Assembly (NCBI GenBank): GCA_024614665.1
Contig: GCA_024614665.1_4861.1
Direction: 5' to 3' (one strand)
From: a phage
DNA length: 64,000 nucleotides
The position numbers and the translations under genes were made by a program. The notes below the pieces were generated by a model that had not been told where the DNA came from, made no database searches, and was given only the letters and a program-made list of their open reading frames with translations. Shown piece by piece: positions 11,111 to 59,772 of this stretch (the first letter of the stretch is position 1; every line of letters begins with the position of its first letter).

Positions 11111-11130
11111 TTTAATACACCTTACGTAAA

Positions 11131-11142
11131 TAGTCGATTAAA
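11131..11142 (-). promoter_or_regulatory. conserved upstream motif AATCGACTAT (candidate promoter element)
   Basis: TTAATCGACTATTTACGTAAGG about 20 nt upstream of ATG at 11110; same motif recurs at three other gene starts. Confidence 0.3.
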
Positions 11143-16924: not shown

Positions 16925-17404
16925 TCATTGCACAAGGCAACTACTTCTGTGCCGTTCGTAGGCACGATTAAAAGACACTCTGTCTTCGCGATAGCCGCGA
17001 ATGAGAGACTTAATCTGTCGTGACAAATCACGACTAATGTCTTGAGGGCTACGAGAACCAGGGTCGAGATATATCCCAGTGGGTATATCATGAAGAGTGG
17101 GGCGAATAAACTCTTCACAAAGCGGTGCGGCCATCGGGGTGCGCCACCCCTTAGCTTCTGCGTAATTGTTCAACGACTTAGCGTACAGATAAACGTAATA
17201 AGCATAAGCGTTCACATCCGCAACAAACATTTTCCCTGCCAGCTTTTTCGCCTCAGGACTGTTCCCACCGACATAAACTGGTGGGTGTTCTAAAGGACGA
17301 AAAGGCCAATCTCCGGTTGAGGAGTAATCTGGGTCTACGTGACGGATGACCCCAGGGCATCCTGTCAACAATAGCACCAATATCGCCGCCAAAAATAACT
17401 TCAT
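16925..17404 (-). CDS. putative lipoprotein (159 aa)
   Basis: N-terminus MKLFLAAILVLLLTGC = signal peptide with lipobox LTGC; terminator hairpin downstream. Confidence 0.5.
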   Translation of the reverse strand: MKLFLAAILVLLLTGCPGVIRHVDPDYSSTGDWPFRPLEHPPVYVGGNSPEAKKLAGKMFVADVNAYAYYVYLYAKSLNNYAEAKGWRTPMAAPLCEEFIRPTLHDIPTGIYLDPGSRSPQDISRDLSRQIKSLIRGYREDRVSFNRAYERHRSSCLVQ

Positions 17405-21529: not shown

Positions 21530-22123
21530 TTACGCATCGGCCTCAAAGAACGGCTGGTTTGGTACCACTGCGTATTCGAGCACGAACAGATGTTCTGGGG
21601 CATCTTCTGCTCGCCACAGTTTGTGACACGTTGCCAGTTTTTCCAGGATGGTCAGCCAGCTGAGTTGGCAAAACGCACGATCGCCGAAGAACAGTTTCTG
21701 CAGTGCAATTGACACATCCATATACGCCTGTTTGAAGTCGAGCCCTTTATCGTAACCTGCCGACTGTCGCCAGGTCAGCACGAAACCTGCTTCGGTTTCG
21801 TTAATTGCTGGACGTAAACCACAAATCCACATCAGTGCCAGATTAACGTTCCAGTCGAATTCGATACCTTCGTCTTCGTCATCACCAAACGCCGCGTTTA
21901 ACGCGTCGTAGAAACCGTGGTTCTCTGCGAACCATTCGCCGTACTCAACGTAGACCGGTGCTTCGACAGCCTCCCCATCGACTTCACCGATAGGGCGCTC
22001 TACATAGTTCGGGTTGGTTTGAACGTGTTCCGCACCCGCGCGAATCAGTTCGTAGACATCTTTGGCGGTGATTTGTGCGGCTGTTTTAAGACCTGGATAC
22101 CAGGGGCGTGTTACGAGTGTCAA
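21530..22123 (-). CDS. hypothetical protein (197 aa)
   Basis: Intact ORF; terminator hairpin downstream. Confidence 0.45.
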   Translation of the reverse strand: MTLVTRPWYPGLKTAAQITAKDVYELIRAGAEHVQTNPNYVERPIGEVDGEAVEAPVYVEYGEWFAENHGFYDALNAAFGDDEDEGIEFDWNVNLALMWICGLRPAINETEAGFVLTWRQSAGYDKGLDFKQAYMDVSIALQKLFFGDRAFCQLSWLTILEKLATCHKLWRAEDAPEHLFVLEYAVVPNQPFFEADA

Positions 22124-22881
22124 AGCAGTGCTCCTTTCATGATGGTGTTATTTGCCAGTAATGTACCGGCCGCAGGTGATATTTTGGTGTACAGCGTATC
22201 CCAGATTTTCTGAAGTTCAGCGACGCGTTGGTCGTGGTCTTCCTTCGCAAAAGCAAGCTGACGTGTTTCAGCTTTCGGTGGCGTCATTTTCGCACCGTAG
22301 AATGCTGCGTCTTTTCGGTAACTGGCCATCCAGCGTTTCCCGACCGGTGATTTCTTTTTAATCATCGCAACAGCAGCACTCTCACCGAAGCGGTAGCCTA
22401 ATGCGATTTCGGCTGTGCTCGGCTTGCGTTTGAGTTGTTTCGTCAGATGATCCTCGATGTGTTTCATGTAAACAGCAGCAAGCTGTACAGCATATTTCGG
22501 TTTATTAAGGTCTGCGTTCTTTGGGATGTTAAGTTGTTTCCCATACAGACGTATCATGGAGCGTTTAGTGCCTGTCGTCATTTGGACAACACTACTAGCA
22601 CTGCTCGATTTATTCTTACCCACGTTTTTATTAAAACGGGATTCACGGTAAATAGTGGTCGCAAGCATCCCGGCGTGTACACCTTGCTTTTGAGATGCGG
22701 AGACGATGAGAGGTTTAATCTCATTGAACTGGTCCTGGATAAGGACAAATTCTTTTTGATGTTTGTTACTGGTGGACTGGTAAGAAGCGTTGCTGTTGAA
22801 TGTGGTCACTGCTACCAGAAGAAATAAAATGGTGCGAAACATGGATGTTCTCCAAATGGATTTATACTTTTCCGTTCCCAA
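22120..22881 (-). CDS. putative exported lytic transglycosylase-like (SLT-like) protein
   Basis: N-terminal hydrophobic signal (MFRTILFLLVAVTTF from internal ATG); ESRFN...SSVVQMT...GYRFG resembles SLT catalytic Glu-Ser region; start uncertain. Confidence 0.4.
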   Translation of the reverse strand: MGTEKYKSIWRTSMFRTILFLLVAVTTFNSNASYQSTSNKHQKEFVLIQDQFNEIKPLIVSASQKQGVHAGMLATTIYRESRFNKNVGKNKSSSASSVVQMTTGTKRSMIRLYGKQLNIPKNADLNKPKYAVQLAAVYMKHIEDHLTKQLKRKPSTAEIALGYRFGESAAVAMIKKKSPVGKRWMASYRKDAAFYGAKMTPPKAETRQLAFAKEDHDQRVAELQKIWDTLYTKISPAAGTLLANNTIMKGALL

Positions 22882-29265: not shown

Positions 29266-29766
29266 TTACAGCCCCATATGCATAAGGGAAATGATAGGGA
29301 CTTTTCGGCCACGTATCATTGCATACGGTTCGTACATTTGTGCGTTAGTTTCGAATAACTCACAGGCCGGAATACGATCGCCGGTAGAGAGTTGTAAGAC
29401 TTCGATTTGGTCGCCCCAGAAGTTATTCACTAATACGTGGTCGACAGTGTTGTCTTCACGACCTTCAGGGGTTTTGCAATAAGTGGCGGCATCGTACCAA
29501 CCTTTGCGGTATACTTCATAACCCGCGTGAAGCATCCGGTAGTACGGACGCAGTTGTGGGGCATTCAACGCAGCATCTAGCCACTCGCTGTGAATGCTGT
29601 TAATCAACACGGTCGCTTCTTCTGGCCACTCGCTGCGGTTTAGGGTTAACTCGCCTAACAGCTTTAACTTCCAGCCAGTGGAAAGAATAGCGCGGGTACG
29701 TTCTGGATTGACGTTCATCTGAGTAAAGAAAGTAGAACGAGTATCGTCAAGAATGTTCATGTTCAT
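29266..29766 (-). CDS. hypothetical protein (about 166 aa)
   Basis: Start at ATG (MNMNILDD) with AAGGA RBS, preceded by AATCGACTAT motif and hairpin. Confidence 0.45.
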   Translation of the reverse strand: MNMNILDDTRSTFFTQMNVNPERTRAILSTGWKLKLLGELTLNRSEWPEEATVLINSIHSEWLDAALNAPQLRPYYRMLHAGYEVYRKGWYDAATYCKTPEGREDNTVDHVLVNNFWGDQIEVLQLSTGDRIPACELFETNAQMYEPYAMIRGRKVPIISLMHMGL

Positions 29767-29785
29767 TTGCTTAGTCCTTACGAGT

Positions 29786-29796
29786 AATAGTCGATT
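29786..29796 (-). promoter_or_regulatory. conserved upstream motif AATCGACTAT (candidate promoter element)
   Basis: TTAATCGACTATTACTCGTAAGG upstream of ATG at 29766, nearly identical to the 11131 copy. Confidence 0.3.
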
Positions 29797-29895
29797 AAAA
29801 AGGACCCTGCGGCTATGTGTTGGGGATATCACCGCAGGGCCAAAGTGAGATGGGTCGTCATCTCACGTTATAACATCTGTCTGAAAACTTTTCGG

Positions 29896-30279
29896 TTACT
29901 GGTCGAGCGCTACTGAACCACGCACCACTCCTTGCTGTTCAATAACCAGGAGGCGTTGTTTGGTTTTCGTATTGTAAGCGAGCGACGCGCGAAGCGTCGG
30001 GTCGCACGTTATTGTCTCTACTGGCACAATCTCTTGTGCCTTTGAGTTCAACAAAAAGTAGTAACCTGCCGGACAAGTTTCCTCGCCCTTTGCGTGGACC
30101 AGGATGTACTCGTCGTGCCGGCTGACTTCTTCACATCTACCATCATCCCCAGTACAGACTTCGAACGAAGGCGGGTTGTACTGATACGGTGTGCCTGGTA
30201 GTAAATCTTCTACGCTAGTTGTAGCTGAAGCAGAAGCGGTAAAGAACACCGCCACGATAATACCCATAAATCCACGCAT
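29896..30279 (-). CDS. secreted small protein with conserved Cys (127 aa)
   Basis: Signal peptide MRGFMGIIVAVFFTASASA; 4 Cys in mature part. Confidence 0.45.
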   Translation of the reverse strand: MRGFMGIIVAVFFTASASATTSVEDLLPGTPYQYNPPSFEVCTGDDGRCEEVSRHDEYILVHAKGEETCPAGYYFLLNSKAQEIVPVETITCDPTLRASLAYNTKTKQRLLVIEQQGVVRGSVALDQ

Positions 30280-30292
30280 GTTGTTTCCTTAC

Positions 30293-30703
30293 TTAAAAGT
30301 CGAGTTTATTGATGCCTACGTTTTTCTTAATCGTAGGGTCATACATGATAACCGTCAGGGCATTATCACCTGGGTCGCGAGTAAACTCAGCAACGGCTTC
30401 ACCACTGCAGGCCTGGTTATCATTATAGTTCATGGTTTCGGCTTGCCCGGTTGCCATGTTAATAACCCCGTATTCCGGGTCGCCACATGCGACGCCGCCC
30501 ATCGTTTTCACTAACAGGTAACGGTTGTTATCGGACATCGCAACGATCTGGCAGCTACCGCCTTGTACGTCAGAGTTCTGGCACCAGAACTGGCCGCCGT
30601 ATTCGTGATCGTTAACAACTTTTGGTAACTCGATACTTCCAGCACGAGCGAAGAAGCTAATGGCCAGAGTAGCAAGTAAAACTGGTAATAAAAAATGTTT
30701 CAT
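30293..30703 (-). CDS. secreted small protein with conserved Cys (136 aa)
   Basis: Signal peptide MKHFLLPVLLATLAISFFARA; about 5 Cys in mature part. Confidence 0.45.
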   Translation of the reverse strand: MKHFLLPVLLATLAISFFARAGSIELPKVVNDHEYGGQFWCQNSDVQGGSCQIVAMSDNNRYLLVKTMGGVACGDPEYGVINMATGQAETMNYNDNQACSGEAVAEFTRDPGDNALTVIMYDPTIKKNVGINKLDF

Positions 30704-30725
30704 AATAGCACCTCAATTTTTTGAG

Positions 30726-31217
30726 TTATTCTGAATAGTCGATTGTTTTGATAGTTTCCATACCGTAGTACATAGCGATGGAGGCCAGAGTTTTGGTATC
30801 CGGTCGCTGTACAAAACCGGCCCTGAAATCTTTGCTGCAAATTTTCTCCACTGATAGTTCATCACGATTAGGGATAAGCCATAACGCGTCACCGTTGTGA
30901 CGGTCGACTGCACCCCACCAACCACCTGGGCAATCTTTATCGCCCGGACGGTGTACGATAGCGACACGTCCGTTGAAGGATATGTCAACTACACGACACT
31001 GTTTCTTAAGCAGCTTACGCGCATTGCACCAGAACGGCTTATCATTAAGATTGATGGTGCGGGTATATGCTGGAATGCTGCCGTTAATACTGCCCTGGAA
31101 CCCGCTGAATTCGTCAGCGCGTGCCTTAGAAATCCGTAGCCCAACAACAAGTGCCATCAACAGCACAGTAAAAAGCACCACTTTGGCCAAGTGGCGATTA
31201 ACGTTATTGCATTTCAT
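30726..31217 (-). CDS. secreted or membrane-anchored small protein (about 163 aa)
   Basis: Start at ATG with GGAG RBS; hydrophobic N-terminus HLAKVVLFTVLLMALVVGL; 4 Cys. Confidence 0.4.
   Translation of the reverse strand: MKCNNVNRHLAKVVLFTVLLMALVVGLRISKARADEFSGFQGSINGSIPAYTRTINLNDKPFWCNARKLLKKQCRVVDISFNGRVAIVHRPGDKDCPGGWWGAVDRHNGDALWLIPNRDELSVEKICSKDFRAGFVQRPDTKTLASIAMYYGMETIKTIDYSE
30734..30744 (-). promoter_or_regulatory. conserved upstream motif AATCGACTAT (candidate promoter element)
   Basis: CAATCGACTATTCAG about 30 nt upstream of ATG at 30703, inside 3' end of upstream gene. Confidence 0.25.
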
Positions 31218-31605
31218 TTTTAATATCTCCACGATTAAGGGTGATGCGACCGACGAGCACATCGTTGTGATAAAAACTCACAGCAACCAGATCTGGCAAT
31301 TCCAACGGCGATACACTGACCGAGGTGACTTTTGGTTGATTGCACGATATGTCGATTAATCGCTGATACATTTTCAATTTCTTATCAGCGATAACCAGCC
31401 CTGTGCAGTTCTTACCGTCCGTCAGTCTGTAGATTTGTAACTGTTCGACCTCACGCATCAGTTCCGGTTTTTCATTCGGTGCAATGGCATAATCCGAATC
31501 AGCTGATGTGTATTCAGTCACGTCTGGCTTATCGAAAGCATAAGTTGCTGCAATACCACATGCGGCCAGAACTACTACTGCTTGTAAGAACTTCTTGATA
31601 GTCAT
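31204..31605 (-). CDS. putative lipoprotein (133 aa)
   Basis: MTIKKFLQAVVVLAACG = signal peptide + lipobox LAAC; AATCGACTAT motif 12 nt upstream. Confidence 0.45.
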   Translation of the reverse strand: MTIKKFLQAVVVLAACGIAATYAFDKPDVTEYTSADSDYAIAPNEKPELMREVEQLQIYRLTDGKNCTGLVIADKKLKMYQRLIDISCNQPKVTSVSVSPLELPDLVAVSFYHNDVLVGRITLNRGDIKNEMQ

Positions 31606-31614
31606 GTTTTGCTC

Positions 31615-31625
31615 TATAGTCGATT
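31615..31625 (-). promoter_or_regulatory. conserved upstream motif AATCGACTAT (candidate promoter element)
   Basis: CCAATCGACTATAGAG 12 nt upstream of ATG at 31605, just after terminator hairpin. Confidence 0.25.
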
Positions 31626-31630
31626 GGTTT

Positions 31631-31659
31631 AAAAAAGAATAGGCTACCCGAGGGTAGCC
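31631..31659 (-). terminator. intrinsic terminator
   Basis: ggctaccc-gag-ggtagcc followed on minus strand by T-run, then AATCGACTAT motif and gene start. Confidence 0.55.
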
Positions 31660-31710
31660 AGTTGAGTTAATCTCTTAACTCTCACCTAGGTAATATATAT
31701 CTGAGATATT

Positions 31711-32298
31711 TTACAATGTGAAGGTTGTGTTAAGAATACGAAAACCCAATGCTCGCTTAGCGATTTGCATATTTGCAGGCGTGAAGTCCACCAGTTTGAT
31801 TTGAACGATCGATAAATCGTAAAGCTTGTGAAGCACTTCGATTTTGTGCCGCCAATCTGTTTTTTGGTGCAGCTCTATCGTCGTTGGTATCTCGCCTAGT
31901 CTCGGCAACTGTGCCCCAAGTAAACGATGATGGACTTTACCGTTTATAGTTGGGGTACCTTCCGTAACCATCAGTCGTGCATCGATGTAGTTATTTCGCT
32001 TAGCGTACTCCATAAAAGTTTTGACATTTATCTTTTCCTCGTATAGAATGCTGCGAAAGTATTCGTAAATGATGTGTCCTGCCTCCCTACCGCTTTCCGA
32101 GTCTGGAATAACCTTATCGATGAAAATCGCAGAGACCACTTCGCTCCGACGCGAATGCATTGTAATGACCCTATCCCCGTGCTGTGCGGCAGTTAATAAT
32201 CCACTCACATCAAGCCCCACCGGAAACAAGCCACGACTACGCATTACGTGCAGGTCTTCTAACTTGTTCTCTTGCAGTCGTAAAATACGTTCTGTCAT
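31711..32298 (-). CDS. hypothetical protein (about 195 aa)
   Basis: Start at ATG (MTERIL) with GAGGTG RBS; the track ORF begins at an upstream GTG. Confidence 0.45.
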   Translation of the reverse strand: MTERILRLQENKLEDLHVMRSRGLFPVGLDVSGLLTAAQHGDRVITMHSRRSEVVSAIFIDKVIPDSESGREAGHIIYEYFRSILYEEKINVKTFMEYAKRNNYIDARLMVTEGTPTINGKVHHRLLGAQLPRLGEIPTTIELHQKTDWRHKIEVLHKLYDLSIVQIKLVDFTPANMQIAKRALGFRILNTTFTL

Positions 32299-59153: not shown

Positions 59154-59280
59154 GGTTGTTTCCTTATAGTAGGTTTGTGGTGCATACTAAATCGTTCTAA
59201 AAAAAATACATAGTGGGCTTAATATGACAGTAAAGTTGACTGTTAAACGAGAAAATTATTTACCACTGAAAGGATACCTT

Positions 59281-59772
59281 ATGAAACGTCTATTTATCGT
59301 ATTCGCGATTATAAACCTGTTGGCCGGTTGTGTTCAGTCGCCAAGCAACATAGGGCAATTTAGCGCCACACCGGTAAAGAATCACGACTTGGTGATTTAT
59401 ACATGCACAGGGACGCAGGAGAAGTTTGTAGACTACCGTCCGGTTCTGGACAACCTACAAATGATGCCGCGGTCAGTAACAGTATTGGATGTGGGTGCAA
59501 ACTGGGTAGCAACGTGGGACGGCGGCAAACTAGAGTCGCCGATGATGTTTAAAGACATGATCGGCAAAATCGACGGGAATGTTAACACCACCACGGGCGA
59601 GCGTTATTACCGTATTAATAAAACCGTAAACGATGGCCCCACTTATTCTTTTTCGGATGTGAACCCGCATACCGGGGAAGGTAAAGGGATGACGTTCTTT
59701 CGCTGCAATGGCGGCCTTATTGACGAAGTTCCTACCCCGATTACGATTGTTCCGTTAGAAGAAAATAAATAG
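59281..59772 (+). CDS. putative lipoprotein (about 163 aa)
   Basis: ATG with AAAGGA RBS; MKRLFIVFAIINLLAGC = signal peptide + lipobox LAGC; own terminator. Confidence 0.5.
   Translation: MKRLFIVFAIINLLAGCVQSPSNIGQFSATPVKNHDLVIYTCTGTQEKFVDYRPVLDNLQMMPRSVTVLDVGANWVATWDGGKLESPMMFKDMIGKIDGNVNTTTGERYYRINKTVNDGPTYSFSDVNPHTGEGKGMTFFRCNGGLIDEVPTPITIVPLEENK

What the first reader, a model, noticed from the sequence alone, without database searches (positions are those of the whole stretch)
29896..31605. Run of four small exported proteins (three signal-peptide/Cys-containing, one lipoprotein) in the early region
Seen: four adjacent minus-strand ORFs (127, 136, about 163, 133 aa) each begin with a hydrophobic signal sequence; three contain 4-5 Cys suggesting disulfide-stabilised periplasmic domains and one has a lipobox. 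Two are preceded by the AATCGACTAT motif. Inference: periplasm-targeted phage proteins commonly mediate superinfection exclusion, receptor masking or envelope remodelling; a four-gene run is notable.
Basis: partly seen in the sequence, partly recalled or inferred. Interest (0 to 1): 0.5.

Follow-up and report, generated by a model that had tools for sequence, protein, structure and literature searches.

The report
Exported four-paralog operon, jumbo phage
A giant Salmonella phage carries one tight operon of four related small proteins built for export into the space between the bacterial membranes. The same gene block sits in cryptic-prophage islands of Salmonella and E. coli, next to the unexplained K-12 genes yfjS/yafY, so it is a shared and still uncharacterised envelope-acting module.

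Summary
The window is a SPN3US-like jumbo phage (Seoulvirus), and the ORFs are orthologs of gp180-gp183.

- **Operon:** the four genes are tightly spaced or overlapping, and the block is bounded by hairpin/T-run plus AATCGACTAT elements.
- **Paralogy:** A, B and C share four invariant Cys. D keeps only Cys3 and Cys4 (hhalign against the A-type subfamily: 95% probability, E 2e-8).
- **Fold:** AlphaFold gives an all-beta domain resembling two propeller blades, with no close solved structure.
- **Distribution:** A, B and D each occur in 64 of 50,697 phage records, with identical organism breakdowns, all ~240 kb enterobacterial jumbo phages. None is listed in the SPN3US virion mass-spectrometry table.
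- **Bacterial counterparts:** relatives sit in CP4-57/CP4-6-type islands. One Salmonella island has YfjS/YafY-like lipoprotein, then C, B and an A remnant, in the phage order, with 72-73% identity to the phage.
- **Named relative:** YfjS/YafY (Pfam PF20494) is a remote relative. YafY overproduction activates the Cpx envelope stress response.
- **Lipobox:** D's lipobox is not conserved among its orthologs.

Export to the periplasm is well supported. Superinfection exclusion or envelope remodelling is plausible but untested.

The parts
31642..31659 (-). Terminator-like hairpin (GGCTACCCTCGGGTAGCC) followed by a T-run, between the gp179 ortholog and gene D; marks the upstream edge of the operon
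   Evidence: scan; sequence
31616..31625 (-). AATCGACTAT motif, copy 1, 10 nt upstream of D's ATG; promoter-like element that follows the terminator T-run
   Evidence: a related TTCGACTAT lies upstream of D in phage Asesino
31204..31605 (-). Gene D (133 aa, SPN3US gp180 ortholog). Divergent paralog that keeps only Cys3 and Cys4 (Cys67, Cys88); always the first gene of the array
31558..31605 (-). D signal sequence up to the lipobox L-A-A-C16 (Gly at +2). An alternative SPase I site is TYA|F after residue 23
   Evidence: not conserved among orthologs
30726..31217 (-). Gene C (163 aa, gp181 ortholog). Its start overlaps the end of D by 14 nt and has a GGAG Shine-Dalgarno. Signal peptide residues 1-34 (ARA|DEF); four mature Cys (64, 74, 96, 127)
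30735..30744 (-). AATCGACTAT motif, copy 2, inside the 3' end of C and 31 nt before B's ATG (possible internal promoter)
30293..30703 (-). Gene B (136 aa, gp182 ortholog). Signal peptide residues 1-21 (ARA|GS); Cys41, 51, 73, 99. The mature domain was modelled with pLDDT 90.9
29896..30279 (-). Gene A (127 aa, gp183 ortholog). Signal peptide residues 1-19 (ASA|T); Cys42, 49, 69, 92
29805..29866 (-). Two inverted repeats (GTGAGATG...CATCTCAC and CCCTGCGG...CCGCAGGG) followed by TCCTTTTT; terminator-like downstream edge of the operon
   Evidence: read directly. The consensus scan did not list them (long loop; no T-run after the first)
29787..29796 (-). AATCGACTAT motif, copy 3, right after the T-run and 20 nt before the ATG of the gp184 ortholog
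   Evidence: equivalent TATCGACTAT in Asesino and AATCGACTTT in Wellington

Best explanation
SHOWN. D-C-B-A is one compact block: a 14-nt overlap between D and C, then spacers of 22 and 13 nt, bounded on both sides by hairpin/T-run plus AATCGACTAT elements. It encodes four paralogs of a domain of about 100 residues. Each has an N-terminal Sec-type signal. A, B and C carry four invariant Cys. D keeps the second pair only and, in this phage, has a lipobox. The modelled fold is all-beta and resembles two propeller blades. The array is confined to SPN3US-like jumbo phages, where D, B and A are each found in 64 records and the four loci inspected keep the order D first. It is not listed among SPN3US virion proteins. 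It has a same-order counterpart (YfjS/YafY-type inner-membrane lipoprotein, C, B, A remnant) in CP4-type integrative islands of Salmonella.

INFERRED. During infection the proteins are exported by Sec and oxidised in the periplasm, probably as Cys1-Cys2 and Cys3-Cys4 disulfides. D is membrane-tethered, or at least first in line, and C, B and A are soluble. They work as binding modules on host envelope components, so that the infected cell (or the island-bearing cell) becomes refractory to incoming competitors. That is envelope-level exclusion or remodelling, analogous in logic to T4 Imm/Sp or T5 Llp.

My confidence that this is an exported, disulfide-stabilised, non-virion paralog module is about 0.85. 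My confidence in the exclusion or envelope-guard function is about 0.35.
For: - Operon anatomy.
- Paralogy: BLASTP B-C 4e-8 and A-C 9e-6; PHROG cross-hits; hhalign of the D family against the A-type subfamily gives probability 95.3%, E 2.1e-8, 78 columns, with D Cys67 and Cys88 on family Cys3 and Cys4.
- Export: signal peptides in every full-length member, and Cys are the only invariant columns.
- Not virion: gene numbers 180-183 are absent from SPN3US Table S4.
- Clade-wide: A, B and D each in 64 phage records with identical organism breakdowns. Order D-(C)-B-A in Asesino, ChrisDB, Wellington and Machina.
- Island counterpart: in L019 the order is PF20494 lipoprotein, C-like (71% aa identity), B-like (72%) and an A-like remnant, with 72.8% nt identity over 856 nt.
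- Other islands place family members in the same slot, near defence or anti-defence cargo (antirestriction, CbtA/CbeA, OLD+UvrD, SIR2).
- YfjS against the family: probability 84.6%, E 6.9e-6. Unrelated controls give E 0.004-0.56 over 37 columns or fewer.
Against: - No experiment or expression data bears on function.
- The proteins diverge no faster than their neighbours (42-59% against 42-46% identity to Asesino), so there is no arms-race signature.
- The lipobox is not conserved.
- Signal peptides were judged without a trained predictor.
- Disulfide connectivity was not checked on model coordinates, which the tool does not return.
Confidence: 0.4

Rival explanations
1. Envelope-stress signalling module. 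The proteins, D in particular, engage an inner-membrane or periplasmic sensor such as the Cpx system, as their remote relative YafY does when overproduced. This reprograms envelope gene expression during infection. Known Cpx biology (my own knowledge) is that it down-regulates flagella, pili and porins, and SPN3US uses flagella as its receptor.
For: - YfjS/YafY (PF20494) is a remote homolog.
- It occupies D's position ahead of C-B-A in a Salmonella island.
- YafY and NlpE were the only two of 90 E. coli lipoproteins whose overproduction activated Cpx (PMC6538781, citing Miyadai 2004).
- SPN3US targets flagella (PMC11428620).
Against: - The YafY effect is an overproduction phenotype of unknown physiological meaning.
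- Deleting yafY had no phenotype in the lipoprotein-trafficking stress assays of PMC6538781.
- YfjS and YafY have Asp at +2 (inner-membrane retention), whereas window D has Gly at +2, and many D orthologs have no lipobox at all.
- D against YfjS directly is weak (E 0.074).
Confidence: 0.2
2. Periplasmic inhibitors or regulators of cell-wall hydrolases. They would hold the phage's own exported SLT transglycosylase or host lytic transglycosylases in check until lysis, or neutralise the tail lysozymes of superinfecting phages (Ivy- or T4 Spackle-like logic).
For: - In Salmonella and E. coli islands the B-like gene is followed by a 312-aa secreted protein. That protein joins an Ivy-like N-domain (PF08816 is the only Pfam hit in all 4 variants, best E 0.0012, 19.4 bits) to a C-terminal domain of this family (hhalign E 0.0018, all four Cys aligned).
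- The window encodes an SLT-domain protein with a signal or SAR-like N-terminus at 22120-22842.
Against: - The Ivy hit is below Pfam's gathering score of 21.
- Its loop reads CEQGNC and lacks the His of Ivy's CKPHDC loop (the Ivy loop sequence is from my own knowledge).
- A profile search of PDB sequences did not recover Ivy.
- hhalign values near 1e-3 are close to the noise seen in controls.
Confidence: 0.15
3. Lysis components: a two-component spanin (D as the outer-membrane lipoprotein, overlapping C as the inner-membrane partner) or periplasmic antiholin-type lysis regulators.
For: - D has a lipobox, and its gene overlaps the next gene, whose product has a long hydrophobic N-terminus.
- Conserved Cys are also a feature of spanins (my own knowledge).
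Against: - Both modelled domains are all-beta. There is no coiled-coil periplasmic domain and no short proline-rich lipoprotein.
- C has a conserved cleavable A-x-A site rather than a stable membrane anchor.
- The lipobox is absent in many orthologs.
- Neighbouring genes are not holin or endolysin genes.
- The same block occurs in islands that are not lytic phages.
Confidence: 0.04
4. Cargo that benefits the bacterium rather than the phage, for example adhesion, colonisation or colicin and bacteriocin protection. On this view the phage merely carries a module picked up from CP4-type islands.
For: - The family is more diverse in bacterial chromosomes. It is found in E. coli, Salmonella, Klebsiella, Enterobacter, Citrobacter, Edwardsiella and Shewanella, and one cluster has 1037 members.
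- It sits in the variable cargo slot of CP4-type islands.
- The phage and island copies of C-B-A share 73% nt identity, which shows exchange between the two.
Against: - D, B and A are each retained in 64 records spanning at least four genera of strictly lytic jumbo phages, at the same locus and in the same order where inspected. Each paralog is kept as a separate orthologous lineage.
- That retention argues for a role in the lytic cycle.
Confidence: 0.12
5. Virion or assembly proteins with hydrophobic N-termini that are not exported.
For: About 46% of the SPN3US genome encodes virion proteins (PMC5105663).
Against: - Gene numbers 180-183 are absent from the virion mass-spectrometry table, which lists genes by number.
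- The N-termini are classical Sec signals.
- Invariant Cys pairs and the chromosomal homologs in islands do not fit a virion role.
Confidence: 0.03

Closest known systems
YfjS/YafY lipoprotein domain (Pfam PF20494), E. coli K-12 cryptic prophages CP4-57 and CP4-6
   Same: - It is a remote homolog. hhalign of YfjS against the 31-member family gives probability 84.6%, E 6.9e-6, and YfjS Cys79 and Cys103 fall on family Cys3 and Cys4.
- Like D, it is a lipobox protein with only the second Cys pair.
- It occupies D's position, with an overlapping stop and start, ahead of C-like and B-like genes in a Salmonella island.
- It is exported, about 100 residues when mature, and of unknown function.
   Different: - None of A-D reaches the Pfam model, with no hit even at E<=1.
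- YfjS and YafY have Asp at +2 (inner-membrane retention), whereas window D has Gly at +2 and its lipobox is not conserved.
- A, B and C are soluble and have an extra N-terminal Cys pair.
- In K-12 the partner gene is yfjT/ykfB, a different secreted family, not paralogs of this one.
T4 Imm and Sp (Spackle), T5 Llp, phi80/N15 Cor: phage-encoded envelope proteins for superinfection exclusion (my own knowledge)
   Same: All are small phage-encoded proteins sent to the membrane or periplasm of the infected cell (a lipoprotein in Llp and Cor), are not part of the virion, and act on the envelope.
   Different: - There is no detectable sequence or fold similarity.
- Those are single genes, whereas this is a four-paralog array.
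- No phenotype is known here.
Ivy (PF08816) and other periplasmic lysozyme inhibitors
   Same: Both are small, Sec-exported and disulfide-containing. An island protein fuses a sub-threshold Ivy-like domain to a domain of this family.
   Different: The phage proteins have no Ivy, PliC or MliC match and a different fold. The Ivy-like domain is below the gathering score and lacks the loop His.
Beta-propeller blades, including natural and designed two-blade fragments that oligomerise (PDB 6r5x, 2m3x, 3ww8)
   Different: - There are only two blade-like sheets in one chain, so it is not a closed propeller by itself.
- Oligomerisation was not tested.

Membership tests
Pfam PF20494 YfjS_YafY lipoprotein domain | Match to the family HMM above the gathering score (27 bits) | tested here: not met
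   A, B, C and D have no Pfam hit at E<=1. YfjS itself scores 228.6 bits, and the 150-aa island protein ahead of the C-like gene carries PF20494.
Pfam PF20494 YfjS_YafY lipoprotein domain | Remote homology by profile comparison, with the two mature Cys in register | tested here: met
   YfjS against the family alignment A7: probability 84.6%, E 6.9e-6, 83 columns. Against the A-type subfamily: 53%, E 1.3e-4. D against YfjS directly is weak (E 0.074). Controls give E 0.004-0.56.
Pfam PF20494 YfjS_YafY lipoprotein domain | Lipobox with Asp at +2 (inner-membrane lipoprotein) | tested here: not met
   Window D has LAAC16 followed by Gly. The lipobox Cys is missing or in a poor context in many orthologs. 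YfjS has LSAC21-D and the island protein has VSGC23-D.
Sec (SPase I) signal peptide proteins | Positive n-region, uncharged hydrophobic h-region, small residues at -3 and -1 | tested here: met
   A: ASA|T. B: ARA|G. C: ARA|D. The signals are conserved across orthologs and bacterial homologs. A homolog with a swapped signal peptide confirms the C junction. This is heuristic only; no SignalP run was possible.
Bacterial lipoproteins (SPase II substrates) | [LVI][ASTVI][GAS]C lipobox at the end of the h-region | tested here: inconclusive
   Met in the window (LAAC16) and in a variant form in P0047 (LATC). It is absent in P0048-50 and Wellington, and poor (AVC) in Asesino, ChrisDB and Machina.
Tandem paralog family (all four genes) | Significant pairwise or profile similarity, plus shared fold and Cys register | tested here: met
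   [not shown]
Two-component spanins (Rz/Rz1 type) | Small proline-rich outer-membrane lipoprotein, plus a type II inner-membrane protein with a coiled-coil periplasmic domain, in a lysis cassette | tested here: not met
   The models are all-beta. C has a cleavable signal. Neighbouring genes are not lysis genes.
Ivy lysozyme inhibitors (PF08816) | HMM match above the gathering score; protruding C-x4-C loop with His | tested here: not met
   The phage proteins have no hit. Only the island 312-aa neighbour has a sub-threshold hit (19.4 bits, below 21), and its loop is CEQGNC.
Known anti-phage defence or exclusion proteins (PADLOC-DB) | Match to any PADLOC model | tested here: not met
   No hits for A-D or for the island homolog P0016.
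Closed beta-propeller proteins | Four or more blades closing a ring, in one chain or by oligomerisation | not testable with these tools
   One chain gives only about two blades.
Virion proteins of SPN3US | Detection in purified particles by mass spectrometry | tested here: not met
   Table S4 of PMC5105663 lists genes by number. 180, 181 and 182 never occur, and 183 occurs only in the CoreGenes table.

The most novel reading that the evidence does not exclude
The four paralogs are subunits of one machine. On this reading, a membrane-tethered D nucleates a hetero-oligomer with C, B and A in the periplasm (4 x 2 blades, a 'split' eight-bladed propeller encoded by separate genes). That assembly engages an envelope sensor or machine, with Cpx as the lead from YafY, to switch the infected cell's envelope into a state closed to competitors. 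The same device would be shared by nucleus-forming jumbo phages and CP4-type cryptic prophages, and it would give a function to the K-12 y-ome genes yfjS and yafY.
Probability: 0.1. Interest if true: 0.75.

Novelty: new variant of a known kind. Interest (0 to 1): 0.5.

Why it matters
Work on nucleus-forming jumbo phages has centred on what happens inside the cytoplasm. A 2026 review of jumbo-phage biology contains none of the terms periplasm, secreted, signal peptide, lipoprotein or superinfection.

This operon is a conserved part of one whole clade of these phages that is aimed at the periplasm instead. It is not an orphan. The same block, in the same order, sits in CP4-57/CP4-6-type islands, and it connects by remote homology to yfjS and yafY. 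Those are long-unexplained E. coli K-12 genes, and the only known phenotype of either is Cpx activation by YafY overproduction.

That gives a cheap and direct experimental handle: express the block, read out Cpx, and challenge with phages. The result would bear both on how jumbo phages handle the envelope and on part of the E. coli y-ome. If the proteins turn out to have no effect on the envelope or on competing phages, this remains an ordinary family of small secreted proteins of unknown function.

Tried and rejected
- **Family libraries.** Pfam, NCBIfam and PADLOC gave nothing for A-D. PHROGs gave only 'unknown function' families.
- **First D comparisons.** BLASTP of D against B found nothing. 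hhalign with a shallow D alignment was not significant (E 0.51). It became convincing only after adding diverged D orthologs and comparing with the A-type subfamily.
- **Long hits in the 1.84-billion-protein search.** P0075, P0077 and P0085 are T9SS/HYR/Ig-repeat proteins. I rejected them as Cys-rich repeat noise.
- **The Ivy lead.** A PDB sequence search with the island protein's N-domain did not recover Ivy. A Kunitz hit at E 0.04 was ignored.
- **Literature.** The SPN3US infection-proteome paper (J Virol 2019, PMC6384053) is not held, so there is no timing data. One broad literature search was unproductive. A gp183 mention in PMC6893735 concerns another phage.
- **Blocked look-ups.** The search for related loci with the broad alignment had no usable pattern. 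The genome scan found a single Salmonella diarizonae locus.
- **Rate of divergence.** It is not elevated relative to neighbouring genes, so there is no arms-race signature.
- **Rejected readings.** The spanin and virion readings were rejected, as set out under the rival explanations.
Full report
**Identity of the window.** The region 29600-31900 is 96-98% identical in DNA to about 25 Salmonella, E. coli and Proteus jumbo phages of the SPN3US type (Seoulvirus), and 90-95% identical to some other phages. The four ORFs are the orthologs of SPN3US gp183 (A, 29896-30279), gp182 (B, 30293-30703), gp181 (C, 30726-31217) and gp180 (D, 31204-31605). All four are annotated as hypothetical proteins.

**The observation.** All four ORFs are on the minus strand and tightly packed. 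D and C overlap by 14 nt, with a GGAG before C's ATG. C and B are 22 nt apart, and B and A 13 nt apart.

- Upstream of D lie a terminator-like hairpin, a T-run and the motif AATCGACTAT.
- Downstream of A lie two inverted repeats, a T-run and the same motif, followed by the gp184 ortholog.
- A further exact copy of the motif lies in the 3' end of C, 31 nt before B.
- The window holds four exact copies, all on the minus strand, where about 0.1 is expected. A degenerate form is enriched at 9 copies against 2.55 expected, and 0 of 100 shuffles reach 9.
- Variants sit at the equivalent intergenic positions in phages Asesino and Wellington.

So the four genes look like one transcription unit, and the motif is a plausible phage promoter element. 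I found no data on its temporal class, so 'early region' cannot be judged.

**Signals and cysteines.** Each product starts with a charged n-region and a hydrophobic core.

- A, B and C have A-x-A sites: ASA|T, ARA|G and ARA|D.
- A Salmonella homolog of C carries an unrelated signal peptide that joins the same mature N-terminus, AHA|DEFSGFQG. This pins the cleavage site.
- D has a canonical lipobox, LAAC16, with Gly at +2. The Cys is absent in closer orthologs (P0048-50). It is replaced by ordinary SPase-I-type signals in Wellington, ChrisDB and Machina. Lipidation may be real in Seoulvirus, but it is not a family trait.
- Mature A, B and C each have four Cys. These are the only invariant or near-invariant columns in a 31-sequence family alignment at 17-45% identity to B.

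No trained signal-peptide predictor was available. The export call rests on inspection, a heuristic scan, conservation, and the argument that invariant Cys pairs imply an oxidising compartment.

**All four are paralogs.**

- BLASTP links B to C (4e-8) and A to C (9e-6), and PHROG profiles cross-hit.
- D was not detectable at first.
- I then added diverged D orthologs from four genera (A9) and compared them with the A-type subfamily (A11). hhalign gave probability 95.3%, E 2.1e-8 over 78 columns. D Cys67 and Cys88 fall on family Cys3 and Cys4.
- Unrelated controls against the family gave E 0.004-0.56 over 37 columns or fewer.
- D has therefore lost the N-terminal Cys1-Cys2 element. This also suggests the disulfides are Cys1-Cys2 and Cys3-Cys4. 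That is an inference; I could not measure distances because model coordinates are not returned.

**Structure.**

- Mature B, modelled with a 25-sequence alignment, gave pLDDT 90.9 and pTM 0.85. It is all-beta, with seven strands.
- D gave pLDDT 69 and pTM 0.64, with seven strands in the same order and Cys at equivalent positions.
- BFVD found only uncharacterised proteins of Erwinia jumbo phages.

**Distribution in phages.** tblastn with A, B and D each found 64 of 50,697 phage records, with identical organism breakdowns: Salmonella 33, Erwinia 27, Escherichia 2, Enterobacteria 1 and Proteus 1. All listed hits are genomes of about 240-250 kb, apart from one 197-kb record. The locus is syntenic, upstream of the gp184, gp185 and SbcC orthologs. 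D always comes first:

| Phage | Gene order |
|---|---|
| Asesino | D-C-B-A |
| ChrisDB, Machina | D-B-A |
| Wellington | D-B-A-A' |

. Divergence from Asesino is 42-59% identity, similar to the neighbouring genes at 42-46%. This is a conserved clade feature, not a fast-evolving cargo gene. In the SPN3US virion mass-spectrometry table, which lists genes by number, 180-183 do not appear.

**Bacterial relatives.** A profile search of 5.8 billion proteins, and an exhaustive HMM search of 1.84 billion cluster representatives, found a small family. There are 38 representatives at E<=1e-3, and about 30 of them are credible. The credible ones are 105-165 aa, and almost all have signal peptides. Members occur in chromosomes of E. 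coli, Salmonella, Klebsiella, Enterobacter, Citrobacter, Edwardsiella (three copies in one genome) and Shewanella.

Where I could see context, they sit in one slot of CP4-57/CP4-44/CP4-6-type integrative islands. That slot lies between the YfjP/YeeP-type GTPase or WYL-type regulator and the run DUF932, antirestriction, RadC, CbeA and CbtA. In E. coli the segment is chromosomal in 142 of 5,426 complete genomes, and everything is annotated as hypothetical.

**The key locus.** A Salmonella Infantis island (L019) has this order after the regulator:

- a 189-aa secreted protein;
- a 150-aa PF20494 (YfjS/YafY) lipoprotein, with lipobox VSGC23 followed by Asp;
- a C-like gene whose ATG overlaps the stop of the gene before it (71% identical to phage C);
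- a B-like gene (72% identical to phage B);
- a 62-aa chimera, whose first 26 residues are A-like and whose tail is YfjT-like.

. At the DNA level the island and the window share 72.8% identity over 856 nt, from the mature part of C through B into A. So the phage order D-C-B-A is mirrored by YfjS-like, C, B, A in a bacterial island.

E. coli K-12 YfjS itself (lipobox LSAC21 followed by Asp, with Cys79 and Cys103) aligns to the family at probability 84.6%, E 6.9e-6, with its two Cys on Cys3 and Cys4. YafY in CP4-6 is 90% identical to YfjS. None of A-D reaches the Pfam model. They are therefore remote relatives, not members by Pfam's criterion.

**Leads to function.**

- *Cpx.* In a screen of 90 E. 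coli lipoproteins, only NlpE and YafY activated Cpx when overproduced. YafY is otherwise of unknown function, and its deletion had no phenotype in the trafficking-stress assays (PMC6538781).
- *Cell-wall hydrolases.* In other islands the B-like gene is followed by a 312-aa secreted protein. Its N-domain gives Ivy as its only Pfam hit, just under threshold (19.4 against 21 bits, in all four variants). Its C-domain aligns to this family with all four Cys (E 0.0018). That E-value is near the noise level of my controls, and PDB sequence searches did not recover Ivy. I treat this as a lead only.
- *Island cargo.* The islands carry defence and anti-defence genes: OLD+UvrD, SIR2, antirestriction, and in K-12 AbpAB and RnlAB.
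- *Receptor.* SPN3US uses flagella as its receptor (PMC11428620).

**Conclusion.** What is shown is a conserved, non-virion operon of four paralogous proteins built for Sec export and disulfide bonding. Its fold resembles two propeller blades, and it is shared between one clade of nucleus-forming jumbo phages and CP4-type islands. What is inferred is that the proteins bind envelope components in the periplasm of the infected cell.

I rank the possible roles as follows:

| Role | Confidence |
|---|---|
| Envelope-level exclusion or remodelling | about 0.35 |
| Cpx-type envelope signalling | 0.2 |
| Control of cell-wall hydrolases | 0.15 |
| Host-benefit cargo | 0.12 |
| Spanin or lysis role | 0.04 |
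| Virion role | 0.03 |

Its functional guess remains reasonable but unproven.

**Novelty.** It is a new variant of a known kind: small exported phage and prophage proteins, remotely related to PF20494. The Salmonella and Klebsiella homologs I scanned have no Pfam, NCBIfam or PADLOC match either. The 2026 jumbo-phage review uses none of the search terms periplasm, secreted, signal peptide, lipoprotein or superinfection.

Noticed in passing
window 11130-11139, 29787-29796, 30735-30744, 31616-31625 (all minus strand): AATCGACTAT looks like a phage promoter element. Three of the four exact copies directly follow a hairpin plus T-run and lie 10-25 nt before a start codon. Variants occupy the same intergenic positions in Asesino and Wellington. 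Its temporal class is unknown.
   Followed up: partly
window 22120-22842 (-): A 240-aa protein with an SLT transglycosylase domain (PF01464, E 2e-6) and a hydrophobic signal or SAR-like N-terminus (MFRTILFLLVAVTTFNSNA). It is possibly the exported endolysin of this phage.
   Followed up: partly
window 16925-17404 (-) and 59224-59772 (+): Two more predicted lipoproteins of unknown function. The first is 159 aa with a classic lipobox, LLLTGC16 (phrog_8165). The second has an internal start, MKRLFIVFAIINLLAGC (phrog_9559). Neither is related to the four-gene family (for the first).
   Followed up: partly
L004:10477-11412 (Salmonella island; also L005, L006, L008-L010): A 312-aa secreted two-domain protein. 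It joins a sub-threshold Ivy-like N-domain (loop CEQGNCGDH) to a C-terminal four-Cys domain of this family, through a variable Pro/Ala/Gln linker. It is encoded right after the B-like gene.
   Followed up: partly
L019:8039-8227 (Salmonella Infantis island): A 62-aa chimeric ORF. Its N-terminal 26 residues are A-like (62% identical to phage A residues 68-93) and its C-terminus is YfjT-like. It looks like a deletion that fused an A-like gene to a yfjT-like gene.
   Followed up: yes
L016:9525-9998 (Klebsiella); L017:12149-12616 (K-12 yfjT); L018:7621-8088 (K-12 ykfB): A second secreted family (YfjT/YkfB-like, two Cys, no Pfam family) regularly follows the YfjS/YafY-type or four-Cys gene in CP4-type islands. 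It has no counterpart in the phage window (tblastn negative).
   Followed up: partly
L009/L010:85-4004; L016:5263-6777: The islands that carry family members also carry defence-type cargo nearby: an OLD-family ATPase/TOPRIM protein plus a UvrD helicase (Gabija-like pair), and a SIR2-family protein.
   Followed up: no
P0003 against L019:7484-7894; P0025: One Logan assembly copy of the island B-like protein has Tyr in place of Cys3, while the NCBI copy has Cys. P0025 lacks the Cys1 region through a deletion between DVKDG repeats. These are either sequencing errors or decaying copies.
   Followed up: no
phage records LR5359xx (the SPFM series): Several SPFM phage genomes match this region only as many short pieces (up to 32), and their predicted proteins look frameshifted. 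This suggests low-quality assemblies, so I left them out of the alignments.
   Followed up: no
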